In this document: piece by piece, positions 33,726 to 57,514 of the stretch
How positions within the stretch are numbered: the stretch's first letter is position 1
Layout of the letters: every line of letters starts with the position of its first letter
From: a virus
Lineage: Duplodnaviria > Heunggongvirae > Uroviricota > Caudoviricetes
Length of the DNA stretch: 64,000 nt
Strand: one strand, 5' to 3'
IMG/VR virus record: IMGVR_UViG_3300013102_000006
Location: 19,869-83,868 of that record
Notes under the pieces: generated by a model
Databases searched by the model: none
What the model saw: only the letters and a program-made list of their open reading frames with translations
What the model was told of the DNA's origin: nothing
Program-made: the position numbers and the translations under genes

Positions 33726-34172
33726 CTATCTATCAATTTCTAGAGAAAACTTTATGAAGTCTTTGTATAAATTGAATGAACTAAATGTAAGTTTCACGTT
33801 GTCATTGTCCTTATCGAGAATCTGACTTGATAACGCGGTGATTGTGTGTGGGTCGATTTCATTTACGCCCTCGTCCACAATCATATTTGCAGAGAAACCT
33901 CGTTGGTCGAGGTATGTTTCAATGTTTCTAATATGTTCTTCATTACGAGCTTCAAGAACGATAATAGTCTTATGCGGACTCGTAGCCCATAATGACTGCA
34001 TATGCTGGCTAGATTGCATACCTGCGAACATAGCAGCGTGTGAAGCTTGTGCTGCAGCTTTACCTACCGACATACCGAGTGACTTATTGAGAAATATGTA
34101 TACTACAGGATTTTCCCGTTTTTCTACAACTTCTCCTATTTCGACTGGCTTATTATCGTCGCGCTTTGCCAT
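33726..34172 (-). CDS. PTH2-family peptidyl-tRNA hydrolase-like protein
   Basis: 148 aa; VGKAAAQASHAA matches the PTH2 signature GK(x)AAQ(x)(x)HA. Confidence 0.5.
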   Translation of the reverse strand: MAKRDDNKPVEIGEVVEKRENPVVYIFLNKSLGMSVGKAAAQASHAAMFAGMQSSQHMQSLWATSPHKTIIVLEARNEEHIRNIETYLDQRGFSANMIVDEGVNEIDPHTITALSSQILDKDNDNVKLTFSSFNLYKDFIKFSLEIDR

Positions 34173-34347
34173 AATAATCTTTTCCCATTACATAAGACTC
34201 GACAGCTTTATAAATCGATTCGTTATCTTCAGATGTCGACGAAAATATTCTGTCCATAGTCTTTGACTTGTACCGAAGAATTGCAGTCACACCATACTCA
34301 TTTCGTACGATTACTACAGATTCTGGCATTTCTCTTTTAAAAATCAT
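34153..34347 (-). CDS. Hypothetical protein
   Basis: 64 aa ORF. Confidence 0.25.
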   Translation of the reverse strand: MIFKREMPESVVIVRNEYGVTAILRYKSKTMDRIFSSTSEDNESIYKAVESYVMGKDYYGKARR

Positions 34348-35239
34348 AATAAGGGTCTCCTAATTGCATTACTGGTAAGCCAAGTTCGTCTCTCCACATT
34401 CTACAGACTGATGGTCGATCATCGAATATAGCGAGTACATTGTATTTTCCCTTTATGTACTTCTCATACATTTCTCGCTTTACAACGGTATCTTTGACTT
34501 GATTTCCACTGGCATCAGTATGGTCAGAGCGGCGCATGTGTAATTCTTTATAAGCGATATCATTTCGGTCTAGCCAATCTTCAGTCTCAGGTCGGCATAT
34601 CTCATCCCTACCGCTAAATAGTATTATCTCTGCTCGTTCAGTCTCAGCGATAGCATCAATCATAAATGCTACACTTGGGTCTGCCTCGTCTTCACCAACA
34701 AACTTCCAGGCATATGCAGCTTTATCACCAAATCTCTTCCTAGTTGTCATATGCGCTAGCGTTCCATCTATATCTGAGATAACGACATACGGAAGGTTCT
34801 CGTCATATTCAGGAGCGTCTATTGGCTTTTTAACAAATTGATGATACATATCACGTATTACTCGTTCGCCAACTGACCTAGAGCGTTTCAAATCACGCCT
34901 TACGCATTCCTCGATAGGAACCTTAAGGAATGAATCATTTACTTCAAATTCAGCTCCGAACTCATCGGCCATCTTTTTGAGAGACTTCTCATGCACTGGG
35001 TTAAGATTTGTGTCATCAACTACGACGCTCTTGTTGTGTTCTAGTGCCGCGCGAATCATAGCATCTCTTGTCCACAATACTTGCTTTTCATGTTTGCGCT
35101 TATAATGTTCACCAAAGAGCATCTCTCGGATGTCATCTTTATTTACTCGGTAGTACCCACTCTCAGAAAGCGTACGAGCGTACGTACTCTTACCAGATGC
35201 TGGTAGACCCTTTGTCATAATCAGCTTTAATTTTGCCAT
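34337..35239 (-). CDS. pnk: Polynucleotide kinase-phosphatase (T4 Pnk-like: 5'-kinase plus 3'-phosphatase)
   Basis: 300 aa; N-terminal P-loop MTKGLPASGKSTYARTL (kinase); C-terminal HAD phosphatase motif VVISDIDGTLA. Confidence 0.75.
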   Translation of the reverse strand: MAKLKLIMTKGLPASGKSTYARTLSESGYYRVNKDDIREMLFGEHYKRKHEKQVLWTRDAMIRAALEHNKSVVVDDTNLNPVHEKSLKKMADEFGAEFEVNDSFLKVPIEECVRRDLKRSRSVGERVIRDMYHQFVKKPIDAPEYDENLPYVVISDIDGTLAHMTTRKRFGDKAAYAWKFVGEDEADPSVAFMIDAIAETERAEIILFSGRDEICRPETEDWLDRNDIAYKELHMRRSDHTDASGNQVKDTVVKREMYEKYIKGKYNVLAIFDDRPSVCRMWRDELGLPVMQLGDPYYDF

Positions 35240-35240
35240 T

Positions 35241-36164
35241 TTATCGTTCCGTATCAGCTACTGATAGACTGTTATTCAATATGTCGTGATATATTTGAAT
35301 AAACTTCCTATTACACAGCCCTTTTAGTTTTTTAAAGTTAAGAGCAGGTACTTTTTTAACTATTTCCCATATCTCTTCTGTAATGAGGTCGTGGTAGCAA
35401 GTGCCAGCAATTTGGCTGGTGTGCTTCATATTAAGTCGTTCTTCAGTCTGCGACTGCAGCTTTTGAATGATTTTTTCTACACGAGCGACTGTACAGTATT
35501 TGTTAACAACATACATTTCCCAGTATGTTTCTGAGTGCTTATTATTACCACCAAACACAATAGCATTTGATTCCTTGAACTTTTCATGGACAACCTTTGC
35601 ATATACGTGGTCACCAAATTTGTTCACAAAGTTCGCAGCCTTAAGTACTACACCCTCACCTGCAGGTGCAATAGCAGATTTACCTACGAATTCTTTAATC
35701 TCATCAAGCGTAAGTTTACCTTCAGCAAATACGTGAGGATATTCGAGTCCTAGAAATTCTGCTTCGGCTTTTACATCTTCCTGAGGTAGCCACCTATCAT
35801 TAGCTCTGTCGTAAATATCAAACAGATAGATTTTCTCATAGGCTGCATCTGGATATGTAATGGTGTGCTTCACAAGCCATTCGCCATAAAGAATATGGTC
35901 AGGATTTCGGCTAAAGTACATAGCGAGACTTAAGTTATTTTGAACAGCCTCTTGAAAACCTCTAAAAGATTCATCTTCAGGTAGCATTCTGGTACGAGTA
36001 CCGCAACGAATCTTACCATCAAGCTGAAATATAGAGATGTTCGCGCCATCTACTTTTTCTTGAACTATTAGTTCTTCATCTAAGATACCATCGGTCTCTT
36101 CTTTTCCGAGTCGATGTATTTTTTCGTATTTTCTGTATTCCACTTCATTTTCCCCTATATACAT
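35241..36164 (-). CDS. RNA ligase (Rnl2-like ATP-dependent nucleotidyltransferase)
   Basis: 307 aa; motif I QEKVDGANI (KxDG), motif IV GEGVVLK, motif V YAKVVHEKFK; adjacent to pnk as in T4 tRNA repair. Confidence 0.65.
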   Translation of the reverse strand: MYIGENEVEYRKYEKIHRLGKEETDGILDEELIVQEKVDGANISIFQLDGKIRCGTRTRMLPEDESFRGFQEAVQNNLSLAMYFSRNPDHILYGEWLVKHTITYPDAAYEKIYLFDIYDRANDRWLPQEDVKAEAEFLGLEYPHVFAEGKLTLDEIKEFVGKSAIAPAGEGVVLKAANFVNKFGDHVYAKVVHEKFKESNAIVFGGNNKHSETYWEMYVVNKYCTVARVEKIIQKLQSQTEERLNMKHTSQIAGTCYHDLITEEIWEIVKKVPALNFKKLKGLCNRKFIQIYHDILNNSLSVADTER

Positions 36165-36967
36165 TATCTCTTATTGAGCTTATGCTTGTCAATAGGTAGA
36201 ACCTCCCAAAATGAATCATTTTTCTTTACAATAGTAGTTTCAACTGTTGACTCGTCAGGTATGAGTATTTCACGCTGATTTTTAAGTTGCTGATTGAAAT
36301 GTTTACATACAACTGAATAATCAACCATATTAGTATAGCCATTCTGACGTAGTTCTAATCCCATAGAGATATCTGGTCCAAGAGATTGATATGTATGGAA
36401 GACGTGGTTCTTGTATATGTTCGCATCAATCAGTGCGCAGTAGAATCCTCCCGCATCGATGTTTTCTATGCCTGAATCCTTATAGGGAATAGATGTAGTA
36501 CTTGTCGGGTTATAGATATCATTGAACCTCCACCCACCGATATATGGAATTCCCCACCTACCGAGCTCGACACCCTCAGCGTATACACACCCTGGAGTAT
36601 TTCTAAATATGTTCATAAGCTTAGTAAGGGCGTTTCTAGGGACAATTGTGTCATCTTCAGTAAGGAATACGTAATCAGCTATACCCACTCTGCTCTTTGC
36701 AAAATTATGGATAGCAGTAATCCTCTTACGTCGTGCGAGCCAATCGAATCTTTTTACTGGCTTAGTCTCAGGATACTTTACAGTTAAACGTTCGTTAAAC
36801 TTTGTGTCCTGAATCATGTTTCTGACTTTAACGTACAGTTTATTATCACCGTCAACGATACATAGTAAATTAGTATATGTAGGATCGCAGTCTATAAGCT
36901 CGAGCGCTGATATTACATCAGTAAGATATTCTTCTCTCGAGACAGTTAATATTATAGTAATAGTCAT
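36164..36967 (-). CDS. Glycosyltransferase, GT-A fold (family-2-like)
   Basis: 267 aa; N-terminal Rossmann-like start (TITIILTVSRE), DxD-like FLTEDDTIV. Confidence 0.5.
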   Translation of the reverse strand: MTITIILTVSREEYLTDVISALELIDCDPTYTNLLCIVDGDNKLYVKVRNMIQDTKFNERLTVKYPETKPVKRFDWLARRKRITAIHNFAKSRVGIADYVFLTEDDTIVPRNALTKLMNIFRNTPGCVYAEGVELGRWGIPYIGGWRFNDIYNPTSTTSIPYKDSGIENIDAGGFYCALIDANIYKNHVFHTYQSLGPDISMGLELRQNGYTNMVDYSVVCKHFNQQLKNQREILIPDESTVETTIVKKNDSFWEVLPIDKHKLNKR

Positions 36968-37608
36968 AAGTTAACCTTATTAAATTGCTTTCCATCAATA
37001 ATCTCGAGTGCTGTGTAATCTCCAATTGGTGTACCATCTCGTTCTGTTGAAAACGAATCAATACACCATACATTTGGTTCAACTTCCCAGCATGTCTCAC
37101 TTGGAGTGTGACCAAATACTTGGTTAGGTAGATATTGTCTCCTTGATGAATAGTTTGGACTATTAGGGCGCGCCCATAGTGGACTTCCGTCGGTCCATAA
37201 ATCATCGCTATTGCCGCTTATCCATTCCTCTGTATATCCGGCATGCGAGTATGTTATCCCATCTTCAAAAACCGAAATAGGTAAATTTCGCACCCACTCC
37301 TTAAGACTCTTATTCTCTGGCGTATTCAGTAATGCTTGAGTCATGCCATTATAGCCACTTGATAGAACATCTAGGCTATTTACATAGCTATAGTCATGAT
37401 TACCCGTTAAGAATATAAACTTCTCTTTATTAGAATTATGCATGTTCTTTATTCTTTTCCAGGCATTCACACTCTCAATAGGACTTGAGTCCCAATCATC
37501 TGAATAATCGCCAATGAATATAACCTTGTCGTATCTACTTGCTAATTCTTCTACTTTATCAAGTATCCACATCTTAGTGTGAATGTCACCTATGGCAAGT
37601 ATTTTCAT
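36964..37608 (-). CDS. Calcineurin-like metallophosphoesterase
   Basis: 214 aa; MKILAIGDIHTK (GDxH), GDYSDDWD (GDxxDRG-like), GNHD motifs. Confidence 0.65.
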   Translation of the reverse strand: MKILAIGDIHTKMWILDKVEELASRYDKVIFIGDYSDDWDSSPIESVNAWKRIKNMHNSNKEKFIFLTGNHDYSYVNSLDVLSSGYNGMTQALLNTPENKSLKEWVRNLPISVFEDGITYSHAGYTEEWISGNSDDLWTDGSPLWARPNSPNYSSRRQYLPNQVFGHTPSETCWEVEPNVWCIDSFSTERDGTPIGDYTALEIIDGKQFNKVNL

Positions 37609-40312: not shown

Positions 40313-40468
40313 CTTCCATTTCTACAACGTCAGCATAAAAGTAAGGTCCTTCTCGCTGTGCAAGTGCAAGTTGCTCCTGATAATACGCGTCAGCTTTTTC
40401 TTCAGTACTGAATACTTTTTCTGGGTAATGATCTTCAATATCATTAGCAGTATAAACCCATACTTTCA

Positions 40469-41413
40469 TTATTTACTAACCACCGTATCTAGAATCTCTT
40501 GCCACCTCTGTGTATAGGTATGCTTAGATTTTGTAAGTTCTTGACCAGCAAGCCTTATTTTTTCGCGCTCATCATCGTGCTCGAGGTAATAGTCAATCTT
40601 TTCTCTCAAATCCTGCAGGTCGCCATGCTTATAGTACACAACGTGGACACCGTCAATATAATCTGGTGCGAACCCTTCAATCTTTGGGTATATAACAAAT
40701 GCTCCACGGCCAGTCGCTTCAAAGAACCTATCGCTCGAATAGTACGGATAATTGAACCCAATATTGAGTGTATCGCCAACTAATATCTTAGAGCTCGCAT
40801 ACAGGTCATTAAGGTCACTACCGCGTATTATTCCTCTACCATCTCCGCCCCAGTGCTCGAATCTGTCACCGTATGTATTATGAAGAAAATCAATGAGCTG
40901 TGGTCTAAATGGCCATTCTTGATGATATCCCTTGCTGCCAGTGAATATTACGTCTTTAGCTAAGTCATCTCTTTTTGTACCAAGATAGCATTCAGGGGCG
41001 TACACGCCAGCCATAAGGTAGTGCCCTTTAGTCTGAGTGTTCTCATTTAGCCAGTCAGCCATTAGCTTATCAACTGTAAAGAAATGCTCTACCTTGAAGT
41101 ATTCAGAGTTTTCGTATTCTTCCCATCGTTTAAGGCCCATGTACAAATCGAGGTGATAGCCAAGTGTCACGATACCCCTTCGTTTCATATCATTAAGAAC
41201 TCGAGTCATAGAGTAGGTGCCTCTATTCACAAATCCGTGGCTATGAATCCATATGAACACGTCGCATCTTCGCGAATGGAAGACTACTTGGTCTGTTCTA
41301 ACTGTATTCTCTTGAAGCCTGGTAACTGTATGTCCCATTGACTCAAGAGTCTTAGCATGATGGTTCTCGGAAGTATAATCAACCGAGAAATTTCCATACA
41401 TCAATATACGCAT
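40469..41413 (-). CDS. Glycosyltransferase (CgeB / GT1-like C-terminal domain)
   Basis: 314 aa; C-terminal YKHGDLQDLREKIDYYLEHDDEREKIRLAGQE is typical of CgeB-like GT-B enzymes. Confidence 0.45.
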   Translation of the reverse strand: MRILMYGNFSVDYTSENHHAKTLESMGHTVTRLQENTVRTDQVVFHSRRCDVFIWIHSHGFVNRGTYSMTRVLNDMKRRGIVTLGYHLDLYMGLKRWEEYENSEYFKVEHFFTVDKLMADWLNENTQTKGHYLMAGVYAPECYLGTKRDDLAKDVIFTGSKGYHQEWPFRPQLIDFLHNTYGDRFEHWGGDGRGIIRGSDLNDLYASSKILVGDTLNIGFNYPYYSSDRFFEATGRGAFVIYPKIEGFAPDYIDGVHVVYYKHGDLQDLREKIDYYLEHDDEREKIRLAGQELTKSKHTYTQRWQEILDTVVSK

Positions 41414-42853
41414 TTATAGCTCTATATCGTTAATTTTTTTGATAAGAGCTTTCTTATCAGTTTCGACCATCTTCATAATGTCGAAAGTCTTTTCTGACCA
41501 GCCAGCTAGAGTCGCAACTCTAGATTCAGGGAAGGCTAATTGCCCATATCCATTAATATCCCATGAGTAAATGAATGGATTTGCATCGTACTTCTTCTTG
41601 TATCGCTCTAAGTCAGCACCTGGATGATAGTACTCAGTCCATGTTTGCATGTCTGAGATGATTACAATTCGGTCATACGCCTTATCAGCTTCTTTGAATA
41701 CCGCATTAATATTTGTACCATGCCCAACGTATCCCTTGCCACCTGTCCAACTTTGGTTAAGGCTGTCTAGCCACTTCATAAGTGTAAGTGTAGAGTCATT
41801 CTTGTTGAATGAAAGATATTCAGCATCGTCACCGAAGTGCATAAGGTCAGCACCAGAGCTTCGTGCAAGAGCTAGGCCAAACATCGCTGCCTTACCAAAT
41901 GCAGACTTTGTGCCACTACCCATTGAACCTGAGTGGTCAATCACAACAAGTGTCTTTCCATCGAACCTAGGAACGTTTGAGAATGATATATCAAGAGCAT
42001 CCGATAAACCAGATAGCACCTTAGAACTTCTCGAGTTATTTTGTAGCTCGTCGTAAGCTGTAAGGAATCGGAATGGCAGCAGAAGTGACTTCTTAATTCG
42101 TGATTCTGTTGTAAGCAATTTAATCGCTGCATCTACTACTTCATCGTCTGTTTCTTCAATAATGTTTCGAAGGTTTCTGACAAGTGCCATGTAACCTATC
42201 TTTCCAGACTTAACAAGCTCACCCCATGCCTCAGCCTTACTGCTGCTATCACCAGATTGGCCAGCTTGCGAAATCTTTGCTTCAAATGTATCGGTATTAC
42301 GTAGCTCGTCTCTAACAAGCTTACCTAACTGCTCGGTGTGCTGTGGGTGCATAAGGTTAACGACGTCTACAAGCTTAACAGACTTACCCGATGCACGATA
42401 TTTAGCCAACTGATAAGCATCGAAGCGTGTAAGCGCTTTTGCGAATCCTTTACGCATTGCGTGACTTTGCTTACCGCCATTTTCCTTAACATATGAAAGA
42501 ATTTCAAGCATGTCGTCAGGTCGGTATGCGATGGAATCAAAGTACTCTTTTAGCCATTCTTCGCCTCTAACATTCATGGCAATCCATCCAGCAACAACGT
42601 GTGACACTGAACGCATACCGAATTCTGTTCGTGCGAATATTGATGCCTTAGCGGCGAATTGTGGATCTACCTTTGCTACAAGCTCTTCTATGCGCGTTTG
42701 GCGCTTTGCACCAGATTCATAGAACCTATCTTCAAGGAATGAAGTTAATAGCGCTGAGACTAATTCTAGTTCAGGCGTCATAGTAAATGCCTCGCCACCA
42801 GCAAGGTTAATTGTCTTGTTTTTTGTTGTCACTGATTTGTTGAATTTACTCAT
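41414..42853 (-). CDS. rsr: Ro60-like (TROVE domain) protein with C-terminal von Willebrand A domain (Rsr ortholog)
   Basis: 479 aa; N-terminus TKNKTINLAGGEAFTMTPELELVSALLTSFLEDRFYESG follows the Ro60/Rsr pattern N-x-(A/D)GG-x-A(F/W)...L..FL.(L/F)G(S/A)EGG(T)(Y/F)Y; C-terminal vWA MIDAS motif LVVIDHSGSMGSG. Confidence 0.6.
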   Translation of the reverse strand: MSKFNKSVTTKNKTINLAGGEAFTMTPELELVSALLTSFLEDRFYESGAKRQTRIEELVAKVDPQFAAKASIFARTEFGMRSVSHVVAGWIAMNVRGEEWLKEYFDSIAYRPDDMLEILSYVKENGGKQSHAMRKGFAKALTRFDAYQLAKYRASGKSVKLVDVVNLMHPQHTEQLGKLVRDELRNTDTFEAKISQAGQSGDSSSKAEAWGELVKSGKIGYMALVRNLRNIIEETDDEVVDAAIKLLTTESRIKKSLLLPFRFLTAYDELQNNSRSSKVLSGLSDALDISFSNVPRFDGKTLVVIDHSGSMGSGTKSAFGKAAMFGLALARSSGADLMHFGDDAEYLSFNKNDSTLTLMKWLDSLNQSWTGGKGYVGHGTNINAVFKEADKAYDRIVIISDMQTWTEYYHPGADLERYKKKYDANPFIYSWDINGYGQLAFPESRVATLAGWSEKTFDIMKMVETDKKALIKKINDIEL

Positions 42854-42889
42854 CAGGATATTCCCTTTTGTTTATACTTTTCTGGAATA

Positions 42890-43200
42890 AGCGGGGATAA
42901 ATTTGCGAGGGTGATTTTTCGTGCTCTACCACTAAGCTATCTCCCCAGATGGCGGGAAGAGGAGGAATCGAACCTCCGTCACGTCGTTAACAGCGAAGTA
43001 ACCCTCACGGTCGTCACCCGCTTATTTCAAAAAACTATCAAGATGGCTCAGGGAAAAAGCAAGCAGAGGTATAAACCCTTTCGGGTCTCGACTGGGATTG
43101 AACCAGCAACATTTTCTGATTAAGAGAAATGATCTACCATTGATCTACGAAGTAACTCTACTAATCGTCACCTAAGCCATCTATACTGTAAAGGTTCTAT
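42890..43200 (-). ncRNA. Candidate tRNA-like non-coding RNAs (Y-RNA/YrlA-like?) in the 5' region of rsr
   Basis: Three minus-strand tRNA-like modules (full descriptions in the finding for 41414-43200): 42890-42956, 42941-43030 and 43075-43175. Hexamer cgaagtaac repeated at 42994 and 43146. Confidence 0.3.
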
Positions 43201-43255
43201 AATCCATTATACTGCATATGGTTGCATCATGTCAACAATAATGACAAGTTTTATT

Positions 43256-43774
43256 TTACAAACTTAATAAATACTCTTCAAATGCTGGATTGCATAAGCA
43301 CGCCGCAGAACGTGACTTTCGAATTATATCAATCGCTTCTTTTGCCGTTTTACCATCAAGCATAAGAACTCGAGCAGCAATAAGACTAGATCTATTAAGA
43401 CCAGCCTGGCAATGGATAAATGTATTACCATCTTTCCAGCATTTATACGCCCATTGAGCAATTTCATCTATCTGGTCAAACTCTTGCCCAGTGCTATCAT
43501 ACATACGGACGTAGAGCTCGCTACGTACATTATGAGCAATCTTATAGCGCTCCCAAGGATATAAACTTACAACATGGTTGATAAAGTGGGGTAGCATTAG
43601 ACCGTCTTGGCACCCACCTTGATATAAACCAGGGACAATTTCGCTCATGAACGGCACATCAAAAGGTGTGTTTCCATGATATGCAATGCCAGACATTCGA
43701 ACAAGTGTCGGGTCTTTAGATGCCTTAACATTTGTCTGTAACGTTATTTTCGTAGGGTCATGGTCGGTACTCAC
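43256..43774 (-). CDS. Cys-X5-Arg phosphatase (dual-specificity / protein-tyrosine-phosphatase fold; possibly an RNA or polynucleotide phosphatase)
   Basis: 172 aa; active-site signature IHCQAGLNRSS (HCx5R). Confidence 0.55.
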   Translation of the reverse strand: MSTDHDPTKITLQTNVKASKDPTLVRMSGIAYHGNTPFDVPFMSEIVPGLYQGGCQDGLMLPHFINHVVSLYPWERYKIAHNVRSELYVRMYDSTGQEFDQIDEIAQWAYKCWKDGNTFIHCQAGLNRSSLIAARVLMLDGKTAKEAIDIIRKSRSAACLCNPAFEEYLLSL

Positions 43775-44838: not shown

Positions 44839-45072
44839 TCAAGACACGGTCTTCTTCTTTTTAGCTTTCATCTTCTTTTCGTCAAAAGTTCTTTGACTGG
44901 TAAGTTGGAGCCCATGCTTAGTTGAAAACTTCGATTTACACTTTGGGCATCGTTCGTGATGAACACCTCGAGTAAACTTAAACCATTCCTCATGAATGTC
45001 ACAATAACCGACAAGAGCATTTCTCTCTTCTGGTGTAGTGCTGTCCATCTCGTCAGTTGTAGGTACTGTCAT
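44839..45072 (-). CDS. Hypothetical zinc-ribbon protein
   Basis: 77 aa; CDIHEEW...CPKCKSKF. Confidence 0.3.
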   Translation of the reverse strand: MTVPTTDEMDSTTPEERNALVGYCDIHEEWFKFTRGVHHERCPKCKSKFSTKHGLQLTSQRTFDEKKMKAKKKKTVS

Positions 45073-46022
45073 TATTTTAGCAAATGTTTAGTTCTATCAT
45101 TTGAGAATTTAAGACGCTCGCAGATACCAATCAATAATTCCTTACGGACTACTTCATGTTTAGGATACTTCAACTGTCCCTTAGACTCAGTCTCAGTAAA
45201 TGGATAACCGATGTTATTGAATAATTTATTCCATCTATCGTCGAGCGTATCTCCGTCGCTGATACCGAATTCGAAATCTCCCTCTACCCATGCATCTTGC
45301 CATGCAAGCCATACTTCAGGAATCATGTACTTCATGACATCTGTGTTAACAAGAATTGCTATACCAGATAATGGGCTTTTACCCATAAGAAGCTTATCAA
45401 GTTCGGCAATCCATCGCTCCTTACTTACTCGAGTAATTTCACTTGCGTGCTGTCTCATTACTCCAATAAAGTTGGGGTCTACTTCAAAACCAAGTTGTGA
45501 TGCAAATCTTGCCGCACGTAGCATACGAAGAGGGTCTTCGATAATACGGTCTTTACCCATTCCTACTGCTTTAATCTTCTTAGCAAGAATATCTAAGCGG
45601 CCCCCATGTGGATCAAAGTATTCATCATCTTTCAGAACAATAGAATTTATAGTGAAGTCGCGTCGTGATAGATCAAGCATAAGGTCATCAGTGAAGTCTA
45701 CTTCTGGTTTTCTTGATTTACCATCGTACTTATCTGTTCGGTACGTGGTTACCTCGACATAGACATATTCTACATTACCAGAATCATCTAGAATAGGTAG
45801 CTTGAATCCTATCGTTCCAAATCTCTTACCGATTGAGTATGCTTTTCTGCCAGCATCTTGAATATTCTTCTCGATTTCATCGGGAGTTAGAGACGTACAG
45901 TAGTCCCAGTCTTTTGGTTCGCGCCCAAGAATAATGTCCCTTACTGAGCCACCTACAAGGTTAACTGGAGCATCACCAAAGATGTTCTTTATTTCGGTCT
46001 GTAGCTTTTTAGCTTTTTCCAT
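45072..46022 (-). CDS. tRNA nucleotidyltransferase (CCA-adding enzyme / poly(A) polymerase head domain)
   Basis: 316 aa; NLVGGSVRDIILGREPKDWDY is the GG(S/A)VRD...D.D signature of class-II CCA/poly(A) nucleotidyltransferases; no C-terminal HD domain. Confidence 0.7.
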   Translation of the reverse strand: MEKAKKLQTEIKNIFGDAPVNLVGGSVRDIILGREPKDWDYCTSLTPDEIEKNIQDAGRKAYSIGKRFGTIGFKLPILDDSGNVEYVYVEVTTYRTDKYDGKSRKPEVDFTDDLMLDLSRRDFTINSIVLKDDEYFDPHGGRLDILAKKIKAVGMGKDRIIEDPLRMLRAARFASQLGFEVDPNFIGVMRQHASEITRVSKERWIAELDKLLMGKSPLSGIAILVNTDVMKYMIPEVWLAWQDAWVEGDFEFGISDGDTLDDRWNKLFNNIGYPFTETESKGQLKYPKHEVVRKELLIGICERLKFSNDRTKHLLK

Positions 46023-46331: not shown

Positions 46332-47266
46332 CGCTTCCCCTTAATATTTCTTACGTATCGTCCCTTAATCTTTTCTCCGTACCCACCGTCGTTCCTGAGA
46401 GCGAGCAGTCTATCAATAAGAGCAAGATCTGATTCTTTAATATCTAATTGCTCTGATTTAGATCGAGCAGGTGGCTTTCCAGCCTCGAACCATGTCCAGC
46501 CACCGTCGATATGATCTCTCAATATCCTAGTGAAGTTGTCAGGCTCCTCATCTGAATTGTATACTCTCATCCATGCAATCACTTTTACTGGTGTTTCGCG
46601 CTTTCGAAGTTTATTTTCATAACGTCTTCGATACCAGCCATCACTTTCCTCGGTGTATTCTTCCATCGTGTCCCAAACTTCACCGAGGCATACATCTTTT
46701 TGAGTTAATGTTGAGTAAACGCCGCCTATTTCCCATTTAGAAGTCTTTTTTGCTTTCTTCATGTCAGCCTTTAGCTTCATGTCCGCGACTGCTTCTTTGT
46801 AAGCGTCCATTCCTTCATGGATAAATCCTGGCTGTCCAGCTTTCCTAACAAACATAACCTTTTCTTTGATTATGCCTTTGGATATATTGCTGTTCCTGAT
46901 TAAATCTACGAGAAGTGCATCATTGACGCCTATGACAAATTTAATTCCGTCCTTCTCAACTTCACATGCTAGAAATGATAAGCGACCGCCTTGAGATGAT
47001 CCATCTGCAGACTCAAGAATACGTACAGTGAAACCGCCGTTGTCGAATGTGTGAACTTCTGGTTCATAGGTTTTCGTGTATTCACGCTTTTCACGATCCC
47101 ATTCACTCTCGCGCGCCCAATCTTTCGCTTGTGTAAGTGCTCTCTTGTCGCCATGTTCGACTACGTAGCCATCAAAGATGCGACCATAAGGCTTATTGTC
47201 AACTGGAGAAGTCTTAACAGCGACATCGATTTTATCCATCATCTTCCAGCTGTGATAGGTCTTCAT
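46328..47266 (-). CDS. Hypothetical protein
   Basis: 312 aa ORF co-transcribed with two nucleotidyltransferases; no motif recognised. Confidence 0.35.
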   Translation of the reverse strand: MKTYHSWKMMDKIDVAVKTSPVDNKPYGRIFDGYVVEHGDKRALTQAKDWARESEWDREKREYTKTYEPEVHTFDNGGFTVRILESADGSSQGGRLSFLACEVEKDGIKFVIGVNDALLVDLIRNSNISKGIIKEKVMFVRKAGQPGFIHEGMDAYKEAVADMKLKADMKKAKKTSKWEIGGVYSTLTQKDVCLGEVWDTMEEYTEESDGWYRRRYENKLRKRETPVKVIAWMRVYNSDEEPDNFTRILRDHIDGGWTWFEAGKPPARSKSEQLDIKESDLALIDRLLALRNDGGYGEKIKGRYVRNIKGKR

Positions 47267-47931
47267 TAGTTTCCCCTCCTGATCTTTAGAAGGATCTTAT
47301 TAATCGCTTCTTTGTCTGGTTCATCTGGGAGAACACTGTTAATTGCTTTCATCTCTGCATCTAATTCGGTAAACCTATCTATTATTTGCTGTGGCGATAG
47401 CTCTCCGAATGCAAATATCTCTTTACGCTGTTCTGGGGTGACACGAACGGTTATATCTCCTGTCTCAAGCAGCTCTTTACCCTGAATCATAAGACGTAGC
47501 AGGTGTCTCGAGTGTTTTGCATATCGTTTATTTTTACCATTGCCATATTTTCCATCCTTAGCATTTAATTTCTTCGCTTGGCTCATGGCATATCCGCCAT
47601 ATGACAAGGAAGCCTTTTTACTAAGAAATATATGCCTATTATCGACAAGCATCTTTCCATGCTTGGTAAGCTCTAGATACCCGTCTAAGAAAAGCATCTC
47701 TAGAATAGTAGGGTTACACTTCATGGCAAGCTTCATGAATTTCTCTACTTCATGATAGCACCAGTCTGGGTCTTTATTGTCATATGTTTCTTTATGCTTT
47801 TCTAGGCTCAAGACATCAGTAGTTTTTGCGACAAATATACCTTTTATATCTGTATCCGAGTCAGCATGGTCAAGACCATATGCCTTTGACCCAGTTATTC
47901 CCTCAAGAATTATATTGTCTGGTTTTTTCAC
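47266..47931 (-). CDS. Pol-beta-superfamily (minimal) nucleotidyltransferase
   Basis: 221 aa; GITGSKAYGLDHADSDTDIKGIF matches the GS-x9-13-D-x-D nucleotidyltransferase motif. Confidence 0.55.
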   Translation of the reverse strand: MKKPDNIILEGITGSKAYGLDHADSDTDIKGIFVAKTTDVLSLEKHKETYDNKDPDWCYHEVEKFMKLAMKCNPTILEMLFLDGYLELTKHGKMLVDNRHIFLSKKASLSYGGYAMSQAKKLNAKDGKYGNGKNKRYAKHSRHLLRLMIQGKELLETGDITVRVTPEQRKEIFAFGELSPQQIIDRFTELDAEMKAINSVLPDEPDKEAINKILLKIRRGN

Positions 47932-57399: not shown

Positions 57400-57475
57400 T
57401 GGTCGGGGAGGAAGGAGTTGAACCTTCTACCAAAGTGTTATGAGCACTCTGCTCTAACCGATGAGCTACTCCCCG
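57400..57475 (-). tRNA. tRNA-Met(CAU) (initiator versus elongator versus Ile2 not resolved)
   Basis: Perfect acceptor CGGGGAG/CTCCCCG, GAAGG-AGTTGAA-CCTTC T-arm, anticodon loop CUCAUAA. Confidence 0.55.
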
Positions 57476-57514
57476 ATATATTTATTATAATCAAAGCATT
57501 AGCCCTTTGTCAAT

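What the first reader, a model, noticed from the sequence alone, without database searches (positions are those of the whole stretch)
41414..43200. Phage-encoded Ro60 (TROVE+vWA) ortholog with adjacent tRNA-like non-coding elements, a candidate Rsr/Y-RNA (YrlA-like) module
The 479-aa minus-strand protein has a Ro60/Rsr-like N-terminus (NLAGGEAF...LLTSFLEDRFY) and a C-terminal vWA MIDAS motif (DHSGSMGSG). Its gene is on the minus strand (start codon at the 42853 end), and immediately upstream in its direction of transcription there is about 300 bp with no ORF but three tRNA-like modules on the minus strand. Module 42890-42956 has an acceptor-like stem plus the D-arm GCTT-AGTGGTA-GAGC and no room for anticodon or T arms. 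Module 42941-43030 has a canonical T-arm GGAGG-TTCGATT-CCTCC plus an encoded CCA but only a 3-bp acceptor. Module 43075-43175 has D-arm GATC-AATGGTA-GATC, an anticodon-like arm TTTCT-CUUAAUC-AGAAA and T-arm GCTGG-TTCAATC-CCAGT with a weak acceptor. The two larger modules share the 9-mer GTTACTTCG. In bacteria and some mycobacteriophages, Rsr is partnered by Y RNAs whose effector domain mimics tRNA (YrlA). Here the partner RNAs would be embedded in a phage RNA-repair island next to RNA ligase, Pnkp and a CCA-adding enzyme. This differs from the bacterial rsr-yrlA-rtcBA arrangement and would be an unusual phage ribonucleoprotein system.
Basis: partly seen in the sequence, partly recalled or inferred. 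Interest (0 to 1): 0.85.

Follow-up and report, generated by a model that had tools for sequence, protein, structure and literature searches.

The report
Phage Ro60 gene with two Y RNAs
A phage gene for the ring-shaped RNA-binding protein Ro60 is preceded by two conserved ~140-nt tRNA-mimicking "Y RNAs" behind one strong promoter; the pairing is already known from bacteria and phages, but one of the two RNAs has an uncatalogued layout (a whole tRNA body with no free acceptor end) that gene finders often call a tRNA.

Summary
ORF 41414-42853(-) is a full-length Ro60/Rsr ortholog: TROVE E 1e-22, an intact MIDAS motif, and a model that matches every solved Ro60.

The 402-nt gap upstream holds two RNAs, not three modules. 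They lie behind a perfect sigma-70 promoter (43235-43206).
- **RNA2, 43026-42886(-).** A YrlA-type Y RNA made of a closing stem, V hairpin, T arm, 7-bp acceptor-like hairpin and D arm.
- **RNA1, 43181-43042(-).** It has the same closing stem and GUUACUUCG motif, but encloses an unpermuted tRNA body (D, anticodon-like and T arms) plus a GNRA hairpin.

Both folds show heavy compensatory change. In 47 YrlA-type sequences 38 of 39 pairs change on both sides; in 35 rows of the RNA1-type alignment 38 of 40 do. Both types sit just upstream of Ro60 in many viral contigs and MAGs.

Phage Ro60 with Y RNAs is published (22 phages in 2014; Thermus phage phiLo in 2025), so the system is not new. What is new here:
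- the RNA1 topology, closest to Deinococcus Yrn1, which Rfam and ARAGORN read as a (partial) tRNA;
- the family-wide UUACUUCG core.

Function (a tRNA-repair or counter-defence RNP) is inferred from context only. Interest is moderate.

The parts
43206..43235 (-). Sigma-70-type promoter TTGACA (43235-43230), 18-nt spacer, TATAAT (43211-43206). The transcription start is inferred at about 43199.
   Evidence: It matches 12 of 12 consensus positions. It is one of only 2 perfect matches in 64 kb, against 0.06 expected. Both hexamers are conserved in the 7 relatives.
43042..43181 (-). Y RNA 1 ('tRNA-body' type), 140 nt. From 5' to 3' it consists of:
- an 11-bp closing helix;
- a bulged U plus a GA/UC pair step;
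- an asymmetric internal loop (5' CGAUU, part of GACGA at 43169-43165; 3' UGCUUUU);
- a 7-bp helix B;
- UUACUUCG;
- a tRNA body (D arm, anticodon-like arm, T arm);
- a GNRA hairpin.
   Evidence: Single-sequence and whole-gap folds agree. Model R1 scores 153.6 bits here. Covariation is strong: 32 of 40 pairs change on both sides in 11 sequences, and 38 of 40 in 35 rows.
43148..43156 (-). GUUACUUCG motif of RNA1, directly 3' of helix B. Its UCG pairs with CGA at 43090-43088.
   Evidence: The motif is invariant or nearly so in 31 RNA1-type sequences. The UCG/CGA pairing shows one compensatory change, UCA/UGA in L007.
43131..43145 (-). D arm of RNA1: GAUC-AAUGGUA-GAUC, with A14, A15 and G18G19.
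   Evidence: It falls inside the Rfam tRNA alignment. The helix covaries. A15 with U48 is kept in all 11 sequences examined.
43113..43129 (-). Anticodon-like arm of RNA1: a 5-bp stem and the 7-nt loop CUUAAUC.
   Evidence: All 5 pairs show compensatory change. The loop sequence is not conserved between orthologues, and one carries a UUCG tetraloop.
43091..43107 (-). T arm of RNA1: GCUGG-UUCAAUC-CCAGU.
   Evidence: Cells are 100% paired.
43075..43087 (-). GNRA hairpin of RNA1 (GACCC-GAAA-GGGU), occupying the position of a tRNA 3' acceptor strand.
   Evidence: The loop is GAAA, GCAA or GUAA in relatives and the stem covaries.
42886..43026 (-). Y RNA 2 (YrlA type), 141 nt. From 5' to 3' it consists of:
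- the closing helix AAUAAGCGGG/CCCCGCUUAUU;
- an internal loop carrying GACGA (43015-43011);
- a 7-bp helix B;
- UUACUUCG (43001-42994);
- a V hairpin;
- a T arm;
- an acceptor-like hairpin;
- a D arm;
- the strand ACGAAAAAUCA.
   Evidence: Rfam YrlA covers its full model length at E 0.004, 28.8 bits. Model R2 scores 157 bits. In 47 distinct sequences 38 of 39 pairs change on both sides. The Levitt pair 15:48 covaries.
42984..42996 (-). V hairpin of RNA2: UCG-CUGUUAA-CGA.
   Evidence: See (helix 4, 84% of cells paired). It corresponds to the 'V' stem-loop of Chen et al. 2014.
42961..42977 (-). T arm of RNA2: GGAGG-UUCGAUU-CCUCC.
42940..42960 (-). Acceptor-like hairpin of RNA2: a 7-bp stem UCUUCCC/GGGGAGA with loop G-CCA-UCU.
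   Evidence: The stem is 98.5% paired and all 7 pairs change on both sides. An NCCA loop start occurs in 8 of 47 family members.
42923..42937 (-). D arm of RNA2: GCUU-AGUGGUA-GAGC.
   Evidence: G15 pairs with C48 at 42978.
41414..42853 (-). ro60/rsr gene, 479 aa (TROVE HEAT-repeat ring plus vWA with MIDAS D306-x-S308-x-S310, T380, D401). The Shine-Dalgarno sequence AAAGGGA lies at about 42868-42862. The scan reports no terminator-like site between RNA2 and the start codon.
   Evidence: - **Sequence.** Pfam TROVE E 1.1e-22. PDB 9KOP/9L5Y E 1.3e-27 over residues 16-468.
- **Fold.** AlphaFold model with pLDDT 83; its top 13 PDB matches are all Ro60, TM 0.59-0.76.
- **MIDAS.** The residues are invariant in 47 homologues.
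- **Terminator.** The only terminator-like site in 42700-43400 lies inside the ro60 ORF.
43256..43774 (-). Upstream neighbour: a dual-specificity (Cys) phosphatase-like gene. It is syntenic in the close relatives.
   Evidence: Pfam DSPc E 3.3e-9. Synteny is seen.
45072..46022 (-). tRNA nucleotidyltransferase (CCA-adding) or poly(A) polymerase family gene.
   Evidence: Pfam PolyA_pol E 1.7e-25 and PolyA_pol_RNAbd E 1.7e-13. Pfam alone cannot tell CCA-adding from poly(A) activity.
47266..47931 (-). RlaP, an RNA-repair-pathway Pol-beta-family nucleotidyltransferase.
   Evidence: Pfam PF10127 E 1.3e-24.
33726..37608 (-). Downstream RNA/tRNA-repair genes:
- PTH2 peptidyl-tRNA hydrolase (33726-34172);
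- Pnkp kinase-phosphatase (34337-35239);
- RNA ligase PF09414 (35241-36164);
- an unknown ORF (36164-36967);
- a Metallophos phosphoesterase (36964-37608).

Three glycosyltransferase genes (37610-41413) separate this block from ro60.
   Evidence: Pfam hits.

Best explanation
This is a phage Ro60-Y RNA operon.

**Transcription (inferred).** One strong sigma-70 promoter (43235-43206) most likely drives a single transcript carrying Y RNA 1, Y RNA 2 and then the ro60 mRNA. The reasons are one promoter, the same strand, and no terminator-like site between RNA2 and the start codon. The two ~140-nt RNAs would then be cut out of this precursor, by analogy with M. smegmatis, where YrlA and YrlB are processed from one precursor upstream of rsr.

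**Ro60 handle (inferred).** Each RNA has the same lower module:
- a long closing helix;
- a bulged nucleotide plus a 2-bp step;
- an asymmetric internal loop with 5' (G)NCGA and a U-rich 3' strand;
- a 7-bp helix;
- the strand UUACUUCG.

Conservation, and similarity to the GNCGAA/GGUCCGA Ro-binding motif, suggest that the phage Ro60 ring binds here.

**Effector end (shown as anatomy).** The upper module mimics tRNA in two complementary ways.
- RNA2 is a circularly permuted tRNA, as in YrlA: T arm, closed 7-bp acceptor hairpin and D arm, with no anticodon arm.
- RNA1 is an unpermuted tRNA body: D arm, anticodon-like arm, variable loop and T arm. The acceptor stem is cut to 3-4 bp, and its 3' strand is replaced by a GNRA hairpin.

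The two share only the D/T 'elbow', so the elbow is probably what the effector recognises.

**Function (inferred from context only).** The RNP would tether Ro60 to a tRNA-recognising partner during infection. Candidates are a host 3'-5' exoribonuclease such as PNPase, as in the Deinococcus and phiLo RYPER complexes, or the neighbouring tRNA-repair enzymes. It could alternatively compete for host tRNA-targeting nucleases. Either way it would act in tRNA quality control, repair or counter-defence.
For: **Protein**
- TROVE E 1.1e-22.
- Full-length match to phage phiLo Ro60 (9KOP/9L5Y), E 1.3e-27.
- AlphaFold model with pLDDT 83 whose 13 best PDB matches are all Ro60.
- MIDAS residues invariant in 47 homologues.

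**RNAs in the window**
- Perfect promoter.
- Rfam YrlA full-length alignment at E 0.004 and tRNA at 42.8 bits.
- Stable folds with z about -4.2 to -4.4.

**Conservation**
- All 7 close-relative loci with readable upstream sequence keep the promoter and both RNAs. RNAalifold finds 15 of 39 and 14 of 40 compensatory pairs in six sequences.
- YrlA type: 47 distinct sequences, 93.3% of cells paired, 38 of 39 pairs changed on both sides, covariation 0.807 against 0.226 shuffled (0 of 500) and about 0.13 slid.
- RNA1 type: 35 rows, 92.4% paired, 38 of 40 pairs, 0.696 against 0.184 shuffled and about 0.1 slid.
- Tertiary Levitt pair: G15:C48 in 26 sequences and A15:U48 in 16, out of 47.

**Placement**
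- The UACUUC motif occurs 1-6 times within 1.2 kb upstream of Ro60, on the same strand, in 90 of 94 loci. Counts are 316 on the Ro60 strand against 109 on the other.
- Nearly all CM hits lie on the Ro60 strand, mostly within about 800 nt upstream of the gene.

**Literature**
- YrlA definition and phage occurrences, PMC4201824.
- YrlA crystal structure, bioRxiv 10.1101/312249.
- phiLo Ro60 binds two upstream Y-like RNAs and host PNPase, PMC12135203.
- Bas63 Ro60-like gp130 counters a defence system, PMC11482910.

**Context**
- Pnkp, RNA ligase, PolyA_pol-family enzyme, RlaP, PTH2 and a 24-tRNA array.
Against: - There are no expression, processing or binding data for this phage. Discrete RNAs and Ro60 binding are both inferred.
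- RNA2 scores only 28.8 bits against Rfam YrlA (gathering score 69). Related phage RNAs reach 33-45 bits, never the threshold.
- The 5' motif is GACGAU/GACGAC here, UGACUA in some close relatives, and UAGCGA or UAGUGA in many others. It matches the published GNCGAAN0-1G only partly.
- The experimentally validated phiLo locus gives no convincing hit with either model. The Ro-binding inference therefore cannot be transferred by RNA homology.
- Because both RNAs lie in the 5' leader of ro60, a cis-regulatory role cannot be excluded.
- The effector is unknown. No PNPase gene was seen among the window ORFs scanned.
Confidence: 0.82

Rival explanations
1. The RNAs act in cis. They would be a structured 5' leader of the ro60 mRNA, for example an autoregulatory Ro60-binding site or a tRNA-sensing leader, and not trans-acting Y RNAs.
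For: - Both RNAs lie between the only promoter and the ro60 start codon, and the scan reports no terminator-like site between them.
- The order promoter, RNAs, ro60 is kept in the close relatives.
Against: - In other loci the same RNAs occur as arrays of 3-6 copies. They can lie more than 1 kb upstream, interleaved with tRNA genes, or downstream of Ro60 (L076, L063/L066, L079, L081, L178). That does not fit a leader.
- Homologous bacterial and phage RNAs are stable, Ro60-bound species processed from such precursors (PMC4201824, PMC12135203).
- The two roles are not mutually exclusive.
Confidence: 0.08
2. The tRNA-like RNAs are decoys or competitive inhibitors for host tRNA-targeting nucleases, or substrates for the neighbouring repair enzymes. 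Ro60 would be only a stabilising chaperone, or unrelated to their action.
For: - RNA1 presents a complete anticodon arm with U33 and a 7-nt loop.
- The locus sits in a Pnkp, RNA ligase, CCA-type enzyme, RlaP and PTH2 island beside a tRNA array.
- Hughes et al. proposed competitive inhibition of an anticodon nuclease for YrlA (PMC7790460).
- Bas63 Ro60-like gp130 counters a defence system.
Against: - The anticodon-like loop is not conserved among orthologues (UAA, CAA, CUA, UCA, GUU, GUG, ACG, CAU, CCA...). One orthologue has a UUCG tetraloop instead. The arm therefore looks structural.
- The strict linkage to Ro60 and the shared lower stem argue that Ro60 binding is central.
Confidence: 0.07
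3. RNA1 is a genuine decoding tRNA, possibly a suppressor, made from an unusual precursor with a long paired leader and trailer.
For: - The Rfam tRNA model exceeds its gathering score (42.8 against 29).
- ARAGORN calls the homologous element a tRNA in several MAG loci, and the equivalents in phage csAssE-Sib are annotated tRNA-Tyr and tRNA-Lys in the deposited record.
- Some orthologues carry CUA or UCA in the anticodon position.
Against: - The Rfam match covers only model positions 5-66, and ARAGORN makes no call in the window.
- Only 3-4 acceptor pairs exist. The 5' 'acceptor strand' UUACUUCG is invariant across divergent genomes and also occurs in YrlA-type and ~70-nt RNAs that lack a tRNA body. 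The 3' strand is replaced by a conserved GNRA hairpin.
- The anticodon identity changes between close orthologues.
Confidence: 0.02
4. The segments are decayed tRNA pseudogenes with no function.
For: - The arms are tRNA-like but no complete tRNA is present.
- A tRNA array lies 10 kb away.
Against: - Pseudogenes would not keep 11-bp and 10-bp closing helices, helix B and every arm through compensatory substitutions in dozens of divergent genomes.
- They would not keep a fixed position and strand relative to Ro60.
- They would not keep a perfect promoter.
- RNA1's body is no closer to any of the phage's 24 tRNAs (at most 75% identity) than those tRNAs are to each other (median 61%, maximum 78%).
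Confidence: 0.01

Closest known systems
YrlA RNAs of the bacterial rsr-yrlBA-rtcBA loci: S. Typhimurium YrlA (crystal structure 6CU1) and M. smegmatis YrlA (Chen et al. 2014, PMC4201824; Wang et al. 2018, bioRxiv 10.1101/312249)
   Same: RNA2 shares the following features:
- location beside Ro60 on the same strand;
- a terminal Ro-binding stem with a (G)NCGA motif;
- the conserved YUAY (UUAC) at the start of the V region;
- the order V hairpin, T arm, closed acceptor-like hairpin, D arm;
- G15:C48 / A15:U48 covariation;
- no anticodon loop.

Like M. smegmatis YrlA it has a 7-bp acceptor-like stem. In the window it also has an encoded GCCA.
   Different: - It falls below the Rfam gathering score (28.8 against 69).
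- No helix equivalent to the YrlA anticodon stem closes the junction. Helix B is joined to the arms by the conserved strands UUACUUCG and ACGAAAAAUCA.
- The 5' motif deviates from GNCGAA.
- The neighbours are Pnkp and an Rnl2-type ligase, not RtcB/RtcA.
Deinococcus radiodurans Yrn1 and the Rsr-Y RNA-PNPase (RYPER) machine (Chen et al. 2013, 2014)
   Same: - RNA1 has the Yrn1 orientation: D-like element, 'anticodon arm' and T arm in tRNA order, held inside the Ro-binding stem, with no acceptor hairpin.
- The proposed mode of action, a Y RNA tethering Ro60 to an effector, is taken from this system.
   Different: - Yrn1 has no evident full D arm, a 6-nt 'anticodon' loop and no variable region. 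BLAST searches reported no orthologues for it.
- RNA1 has canonical D and T arms, a 5-bp stem with a 7-nt loop and U33, a 5-nt variable loop, A15:U48, an extra GNRA hairpin, and 30 relatives found here.
Thermus phage phiLo Ro60 with Yrl1/Yrl2 (NAR 2025, PMC12135203; PDB 9KOP, 9L5Y)
   Same: - It is the best solved-structure match of the window protein (E 1.3e-27, full length).
- It is a phage-encoded Ro60 with two Y-like RNAs directly upstream.
- Those RNAs were described as a stem, a bulge with CGAA, and a stem.
- They were shown to bind Ro60 and host PNPase.
   Different: - Protein identity is only about 24-27%.
- Neither covariance model finds a convincing match in the phiLo locus.
- The passages of the paper retrieved here describe stem-bulge-stem features, not a tRNA-like domain.
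Phage T4-type tRNA repair (Pnkp plus RNA ligase countering anticodon nucleases) and jumbo-phage RNA-repair islands with TROVE (Iyer et al. 2021, PMC7824862)
   Same: The gene neighbourhood combines Pnkp, RNA ligase, nucleotidyltransferases and a tRNA array. TROVE had already been noted as an occasional member of such phage islands.
   Different: - The paper mentions a tRNA-like partner only in general terms. The specific RNAs, their two topologies and their promoter were not described.
- This phage is about 84 kb, not a jumbo phage.
E. coli phage Bas63 gp130, a Ro60-like counter-defence protein (PhageMaP preprint, PMC11482910)
   Same: - It is a phage Ro60-like protein next to tRNA-annotated genes.
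- The authors speculate that some of those 'tRNAs' are Y RNAs. That is what is seen here for RNA1-type elements.
   Different: - No sequence relationship to gp130 was tested here.
- The defence system it counters (ppl) is a putative DNA-targeting system, so its relevance to this locus is unknown.

Membership tests
Ro60 / Rsr (TROVE) proteins | TROVE (HEAT-repeat) domain | tested here: met
   PF05731 E 1.1e-22, 81.3 bits against a cut-off of 23. There are 4280 homologues at E<=1e-20, nearly all listed ones carrying PF05731.
Ro60 / Rsr (TROVE) proteins | C-terminal vWA domain with a MIDAS motif (DxSxS...T...D) | tested here: met
   - D306-H-S308-G-S310, T380 and D401 are invariant in 47 homologues.
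- The Pfam hits are just below their cut-offs: VWA_2 25.9 against 27 and vWA_Ro60 22.1 against 27.7.
- The C-terminal part of the model matches vWA/I-domains.
Ro60 / Rsr (TROVE) proteins | Overall ring fold like solved Ro60 structures | tested here: met
   - phmmer against PDB gives 9KOP/9L5Y E 1.3e-27 (residues 16-468) and 2NVO E 5e-5.
- The AlphaFold model has pLDDT 83 and pTM 0.80.
- The top 13 Foldseek hits are all Ro60 (phiLo, Xenopus, human, Deinococcus), TM 0.59-0.76.
Ro60 / Rsr (TROVE) proteins | Binds Y RNA on the outer surface and misfolded RNA ends in the central cavity | not testable with these tools
   This needs EMSA, CLIP or a structure.
YrlA (Rfam RF02553; Chen et al. 2014), applied to RNA2 at 43026-42886(-) | Reaches the Rfam gathering score | tested here: not met
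   28.8 bits against 69, E 0.004, full model length. Related phage RNAs score 33-45 bits.
YrlA (Rfam RF02553; Chen et al. 2014), applied to RNA2 | Encoded close to Ro60 on the same strand | tested here: met
   It ends 33 nt upstream of the ro60 start codon, on the same strand. The family as a whole is placed the same way.
YrlA (Rfam RF02553; Chen et al. 2014), applied to RNA2 | 5' motif GNCGAAN0-1G (the presumed Rsr site) | tested here: inconclusive
   The window has GACGAC in RNA2 and GACGAU in RNA1, so 5 of 6 positions match. Relatives have UGACUA, UAGCGA or UAGUGA. The common core is YGA or CGA in the 5' strand of the internal loop.
YrlA (Rfam RF02553; Chen et al. 2014), applied to RNA2 | Conserved YUAY at the start of the V region, and a V stem-loop | tested here: met
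   UUAC lies within the near-invariant UUACUUCG. The V hairpin is UCG-7 nt-CGA (against the definition).
YrlA (Rfam RF02553; Chen et al. 2014), applied to RNA2 | T arm, closed acceptor-like hairpin and D arm, in that order (a permuted tRNA without an anticodon loop) | tested here: met
   The Rfam alignment shows this order. In 47 sequences the helices are 97.8-99.5% paired, and every pair changes on both sides.
YrlA (Rfam RF02553; Chen et al. 2014), applied to RNA2 | tRNA tertiary signature: Levitt pair 15:48 covaries (G:C or A:U) | tested here: met
   G:C in 26 sequences, A:U in 16 and other combinations in 5, out of 47.
YrlA (Rfam RF02553; Chen et al. 2014), applied to RNA2 | Bound by Rsr and modified by TruB/DusA | not testable with these tools
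   This is experimental.
tRNA, applied to RNA1 at 43181-43042(-) | D, anticodon and T arms with conserved loop nucleotides | tested here: met
   Rfam tRNA scores 42.8 bits (gathering score 29) over model positions 5-66. Five orthologues score 46-50 bits, also without acceptor positions.
tRNA, applied to RNA1 | 7-bp acceptor stem with a free 5' end and a 3' NCCA end | tested here: not met
   - Only UCG/CGA plus one U-G pair exist.
- The 3' strand is a GNRA hairpin.
- The ends are locked in an 11-bp helix.
- ARAGORN makes no call here.
tRNA, applied to RNA1 | Anticodon identity conserved among orthologues | tested here: not met
   Across 31 orthologues the loop reads UAA, CAA, CUA, UCA, UGU, GAU, ACU, GUU, GUG, ACG, CAU, CCA and others. 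One orthologue has a UUCG tetraloop.
Deinococcus Yrn1-type Y RNA, applied to RNA1 | T-arm and D-like element in tRNA order around an anticodon-like arm, inside the Ro-binding stem | tested here: met
   The description of Yrn1 comes from PMC4201824.
Deinococcus Yrn1-type Y RNA, applied to RNA1 | Sequence or profile homology to Yrn1 | not tested
Nothing but tRNA and YrlA matched these RNAs in the Rfam scan.

The most novel reading that the evidence does not exclude
RNA1 may represent a widespread but uncatalogued second class of Ro60-associated tRNA mimics: 'tRNA-body Y RNAs', in which D, anticodon-like and T arms in native order have the acceptor end replaced by the Ro60-binding stem.

These RNAs co-occur with YrlA-type RNAs in phages and in Bacteroidota and Verrucomicrobiota MAG contigs, and they are routinely mis-annotated as tRNA genes.

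The two classes share only the D/T elbow and the UUACUUCG core. The elbow would therefore be the effector-recognition element. The extra anticodon arm would give RNA1-type RNAs a distinct job, for example engaging or decoying tRNA-targeting defence nucleases or tRNA-repair enzymes during infection.
Probability: 0.3. Interest if true: 0.65.

Novelty: new variant of a known kind. Interest (0 to 1): 0.5.

Why it matters
What the tRNA-like domain of bacterial Y RNAs is for has been open since 2014.

This locus, and the roughly 80 related RNAs collected here, amount to a natural experiment. The same Ro60-binding handle carries one of three heads:
- a permuted tRNA lacking the anticodon arm;
- an unpermuted tRNA lacking the acceptor end;
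- a bare loop.

The tRNA elbow is the common denominator of the two tRNA-like heads. That is directly testable with binding partners such as PNPase, RNase P, TruB and CCA-adding enzymes.

There are also practical consequences.
- Rfam's YrlA model misses this whole clade.
- The tRNA model and ARAGORN pick up RNA1-type elements, so phage and MAG annotations contain 'tRNAs' next to Ro60 that are probably Y RNAs.
- For phage biology, this adds a well-defined RNP to the RNA-repair and counter-defence islands of medium-sized phages.

Tried and rejected
- **DNA searches.** A near-identity search of the locus against 50,697 phage records found nothing. A distant search of the gap found only a 57-nt T-arm-like match in Microbacterium phages.
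- **Collection scans.** A single-sequence scan of viral contigs found no relative, so a protein alignment was needed. The metagenome-contig scan failed with a tool error and was not repeated.
- **Rfam on the nearest GenBank relative.** A scan of LR745206.1 found no known family. Its RNAs are short Y-type hairpins seen only through the UACUUC motif.
- **An anticodon-stem-like helix closing the RNA2 junction, as in Salmonella YrlA.** I read the alignments for it. Candidate 3-bp pairings (CGU/ACG) are not maintained in relatives, so I dropped it.
- **A long-range pairing of the 5' leader (CCUUU) with the Shine-Dalgarno region (AAAGG)**, suggested by the MFE fold. It is not conserved in relatives, so I rejected it.
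- **RNase P cleavage and CCA use of the RNA2 acceptor-like hairpin.** The 7-bp stem is universal, but an NCCA loop start occurs in only 8 of 47 sequences. Close relatives have AACA and many others have tetraloops. I kept this only as a lineage-specific possibility.
- **Recent origin of RNA1's body from one of the phage's own tRNAs.** The best identity is 75%, within the tRNA-tRNA background.
- **A specific decoy anticodon.** This is rejected as a family property because the loop is not conserved.
- **Homology of the RNAs to the validated phiLo Yrl1/Yrl2.** No convincing covariance-model hit.
- **Host identification.** No close phage relative exists. The nearest Ro60 proteins are in Saprospiraceae and Verrucomicrobiales MAGs at under 50% identity, which does not identify the host.

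Full report
**1. What is in the sequence**

The gap between its start codon and the stop of the upstream gene (43256-43774, a DSPc-type phosphatase) is 402 nt.

ARAGORN finds no tRNA in the gap. The phage's 24 tRNA genes lie at 53.5-57.7 kb.

Rfam gives two matches in the gap.
- The tRNA model scores 42.8 bits (gathering score 29) at 43088-43150(-). It covers only model positions 5-66, so there is no acceptor stem.
- The YrlA model matches its full length at 42890-43005(-) with E 0.004. At 28.8 bits it is far below the gathering score of 69.

A perfect TTGACA-N18-TATAAT promoter lies at 43235-43206(-). Only two such sites occur in the 64-kb window, against 0.06 expected. The other is in the tRNA array.

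**2. The protein is Ro60**

- Pfam TROVE has E 1.1e-22. The two vWA models fall just under their cut-offs.
- The best solved relative is the Ro60 of Thermus phage phiLo (9KOP/9L5Y), E 1.3e-27 over residues 16-468. Next is Deinococcus Rsr (2NVO).
- An AlphaFold model built on 47 homologues (pLDDT 83, pTM 0.80) has as its 13 best PDB matches only Ro60 structures from phage, Xenopus, human and Deinococcus, TM 0.59-0.76.
- The MIDAS residues D306, S308, S310, T380 and D401 are invariant in the alignment.

**3. Two RNAs, not three modules**

Folding the whole gap gives two independent long-stem structures. Folded alone, each has z about -4.2 to -4.4.

RNA1 spans 43181-43042(-). Its parts, 5' to 3', are:
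- the closing helix GAUGGCUUAGG/CCUGAGCCAUC;
- a bulged U and a GA/UC step;
- an asymmetric internal loop (5' CGAUU, 3' UGCUUUU);
- the 7-bp helix AGUAGAG/CUCUGCU;
- the strand UUACUUCG, whose UCG pairs with CGA after the T arm;
- U8-A9, a canonical D arm, A26, a 5-bp stem with the 7-nt loop CUUAAUC, a 5-nt variable loop and a canonical T arm;
- a GNRA hairpin, GACCC-GAAA-GGGU.

RNA2 spans 43026-42886(-). It has the same lower module (AAUAAGCGGG/CCCCGCUUAUU, a GACGAC loop, the helix GUGAGGG/CCCUCGC, and UUACUUCG). It then continues:
- a small V hairpin (UCG-CUGUUAA-CGA);
- the T arm;
- a 7-bp acceptor-like hairpin whose loop reads G-CCA-UCU;
- the D arm;
- the strand ACGAAAAAUCA.

The 'weak 3-bp acceptor' is in fact a perfect 7-bp stem formed between them.

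**4. Comparative evidence**

The protein has thousands of homologues. Five proteins at 73-79% identity gave eight syntenic loci (L082-L087, L089, L090). Five of these loci lie on contigs of 23-85 kb (three of them 83-85 kb) and show the gene order CCA-type enzyme, small ORFs, DSPc (absent in L090), a ~400-nt gap, Ro60, GT, Metallophos, RNA ligase.

The seven of these loci with readable upstream sequence align with the window gap throughout. The promoter hexamers are kept and stems show compensatory changes. RNAalifold on six distinct sequences supports 39 and 40 pairs, of which 15 and 14 show double changes.

I built covariance models from these alignments (R1 for RNA1, R2 for RNA2). I searched 94 loci carrying Ro60 homologues, 80 of them IMG/VR contigs at 41-50% protein identity. 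There were 103 and 118 hits. Nearly all lie on the Ro60 strand, mostly within about 800 nt upstream of the gene, and often as 2-6 tandem copies.

| Measure | YrlA type | RNA1 type, 11 seqs | RNA1 type, 35 rows |
|---|---|---|---|
| Cells paired | 93.3% (47 distinct seqs) | 94.6% | 92.4% |
| Pairs changed on both sides | 38 of 39 | 32 of 40 | 38 of 40 |
| Covariation score | 0.807 | 0.649 | 0.696 |
| Shuffled control | 0.226 (0 of 500) | 0.221 | 0.184 |
| Slid control | 0.12-0.15 | about 0.1 | about 0.1 |

The 35 rows include 20 further RNA1-type sequences from MAG contigs. Four rows are YrlA-type cross-hits.

The tertiary Levitt pair covaries in the YrlA-type set: G15:C48 in 26 sequences, A15:U48 in 16, other in 5. 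Chen et al. used this same signature to argue for an L-shaped fold.

The motif [GA][UCA]UACUUC occurs 1-6 times within 1.2 kb upstream of Ro60, on its strand, in 90 of 94 loci. The decayed-pseudogene scenario is therefore excluded.

**5. What varies and what does not**

Conserved across all three kinds of RNA in this clade (RNA1 type, YrlA type, and ~70-nt minimal hairpins seen in about half of the IMG/VR loci):
- the closing helix;
- the internal loop with YGA/CGA on the 5' strand and a U-rich 3' strand;
- helix B;
- UUACUUCG.

An A-rich ...CA strand on the 3' side of helix B is shared by the YrlA-type and minimal RNAs. RNA1-type RNAs have a related ...AUAC/...CAUC strand at that position.

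Within the tRNA-like heads, the D and T arms are highly conserved. The anticodon-like loop of RNA1-type RNAs is not. It reads UAA in the window, and CAA, CUA and UCA in close relatives. Elsewhere it reads GUU, GUG, ACG, CAU, CCA and others, and once a UUCG tetraloop.

The encoded CCA in the RNA2 hairpin loop is found in only 8 of 47 relatives. Close relatives have AACA, and many others have tetraloops.

The anticodon and the CCA end are therefore not what selection maintains. The elbow and the Ro60 handle are.

**6. Comparison with what is known**

Chen et al. 2014 defined YrlA by these features:
- proximity to Ro60;
- a 5' GNCGAAN0-1G motif;
- a conserved YUAY opening the V region;
- V, T, acceptor-like and D stem-loops;
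- 15:48 covariation.

They reported YrlA in 254 bacteria and 22 phages. RNA2 meets all of these except that the 5' motif is GACGAC, and it fails the Rfam threshold. By anatomy it is a divergent YrlA.

Wang et al. 2018 stress that YrlA lacks an anticodon loop and has a closed acceptor stem. RNA1 is the converse. Its nearest described relative is Deinococcus Yrn1, which has a T arm, only partial D-loop features and a 5-bp/6-nt 'anticodon arm'. Yrn1 had no detectable orthologues, and Chen et al. concluded that it evolved independently of YrlA. Here both orientations sit side by side on the same Ro60-binding handle.

Other published precedents:
- Thermus phage phiLo Ro60 with two upstream Y-like RNAs has been characterised structurally, and the complex recruits host PNPase.
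- TROVE proteins in phage RNA-repair islands were noted by Iyer et al. 2021.
- A Ro60-like protein of phage Bas63 counters a defence system, and its authors suspected that neighbouring 'tRNAs' are Y RNAs.

The system as such is therefore known. The window adds a new, well-supported member and an RNA variant that is not in Rfam.

**7. Mis-annotation**

- Rfam's tRNA model hits every RNA1-type element tested at 46-50 bits, always without the acceptor positions.
- ARAGORN calls several of them tRNAs in MAG loci.
- In the deposited genome of phage csAssE-Sib, the 'tRNA-Tyr' and 'tRNA-Lys' just upstream of the Ro60 gene sit inside Y-type stems and carry UACUUCG.

**8. Mechanism: shown and inferred**

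Shown:
- a Ro60 gene;
- two conserved structured RNAs with a shared lower module and tRNA-like heads;
- a strong promoter;
- no terminator-like site reported between RNA2 and ro60;
- an RNA/tRNA-repair neighbourhood on the same strand, made up of PTH2, Pnkp, RNA ligase, Metallophos, DSPc, a PolyA_pol-family enzyme and RlaP.

Inferred:
- co-transcription, and processing into ~140-nt RNAs;
- Ro60 binding to the lower module;
- recruitment through the tRNA elbow of an effector, either an exoribonuclease as in RYPER or tRNA-processing and repair enzymes;
- a role in tRNA quality control or counter-defence.

Cis-regulation of ro60 and Ro60-independent decoy action remain minor alternatives.

**9. 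Limits**

- There are no expression or binding data.
- The host is unknown. No close phage relative exists in GenBank.
- Many MAG loci may be phage or prophage DNA, because flanks of only 1.5 kb were fetched.
- Covariance-model alignments lean towards the model structure. The shuffled and slid controls, and the independent RNAalifold results, argue that the signal is real.

**10. Verdict**

The novelty of the system is low. The RNA1 topology and the clade-wide core motif are new variants worth cataloguing and testing. Interest is 0.5.

Noticed in passing
window 57484-57513 (-): This is the only other perfect TTGACA-N18-TATAAT promoter in the window. It lies inside the tRNA array, upstream of tRNA-Met at 57400-57475. 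In this window the perfect consensus is used only in front of RNA genes.
   Followed up: no
window 6356-9466 (-): A 1036-aa ORF combines a portal domain (residues 43-375), an internal 2H-phosphoesterase/LigT-like 'RNA ligase' domain (residues ~500-675) and a head-morphogenesis domain (residues 761-946). The internal domain is similar to the '3'-5' RNA ligase' genes of Microbacterium and Rhodococcus phages. This may be a virion-associated RNA-end-processing enzyme.
   Followed up: partly
window 37610-41413 (-): Three glycosyltransferase genes (GT1-like, GT47/RXYLT1-like and Glyco_trans_1_2) lie between ro60 and the Metallophos/RNA ligase genes. The close relatives have a single GT at this position.
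   Followed up: no
L177 (phage csAssE-Sib, OR575929.1) 996-1419: The annotated tRNA-Tyr (1166-1238) and tRNA-Lys (1311-1384), directly upstream of the annotated 'Ro sixty-related protein', carry the UACUUCG motif and lie inside long closing stems. R1 scores them 23 and 44 bits. A YrlA-type RNA lies at 996-1129. These are probably Y RNAs annotated as tRNAs.
   Followed up: partly
L149 1041-1113; L154 654-726; L143 928-999; L139 1210-1284; L095 228-302; L042 2820-2896: ARAGORN calls the RNA1-type elements of these loci as tRNA genes (Pro-agg, Leu-caa, Met, Gln, His, Ser-act). Each one lies inside a full-length R1 hit with the Y-type closing stem.
   Followed up: partly
L092 3001-4719: The Ro60 gene called in this JGI contig is 572 aa, about 90 aa longer than its relatives. 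Its N-terminal extension runs over a YrlA-type RNA (R2 hit 3082-3233, 68 bits), so the start codon is probably over-called.
   Followed up: partly
L076 2238-2963; L009 2378-2937; L025 2229-2872: Some viral contigs carry arrays of 3-6 tandem Y-type RNAs upstream of Ro60, six in L076. These arrays are much larger than the one or two Y RNAs described per bacterial locus.
   Followed up: no
about 35 IMG/VR loci, e.g. L029 2552-2741 and L001 (LR745206.1, a 634-kb phage) 3526-3720: These loci have two UACUUC motifs about 85 nt apart.
- The first belongs to a ~70-nt minimal Y RNA of the form CCAG-UAGUGAnnn-helix-UUACUUCG...AAAAACA-helix-...CUGG.
- The second begins with the highly conserved GCAAACAUAGCGAUAGUUUGAGAUACUUCG. 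Its closing partner (UGUUUGC) appears to lie hundreds of nt downstream.

The nature of this longer element was not worked out.
   Followed up: partly
L095-L174 (GTDB genome contigs): The closest cellular-bin relatives of this Ro60 clade (42-50% identity) are mostly MAGs of Saprospiraceae and other Bacteroidota, and of Verrucomicrobiales. Several lie on contigs of 0.3-3.5 Mb, and tRNA arrays were found next to Ro60 in several of the loci scanned. I did not determine whether these are chromosomal rsr loci or prophages.
   Followed up: no
window 42911-43123 (+): A 70-codon GTG-initiated ORF on the opposite strand lies entirely within the two Y RNAs. It is almost certainly spurious, but a gene caller could pick it up.
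   Followed up: no
window 47266-47931 and 33726-34172 (-): An RlaP-family nucleotidyltransferase and a PTH2 peptidyl-tRNA hydrolase flank the repair island. They strengthen the tRNA-centred reading of the neighbourhood.
   Followed up: no
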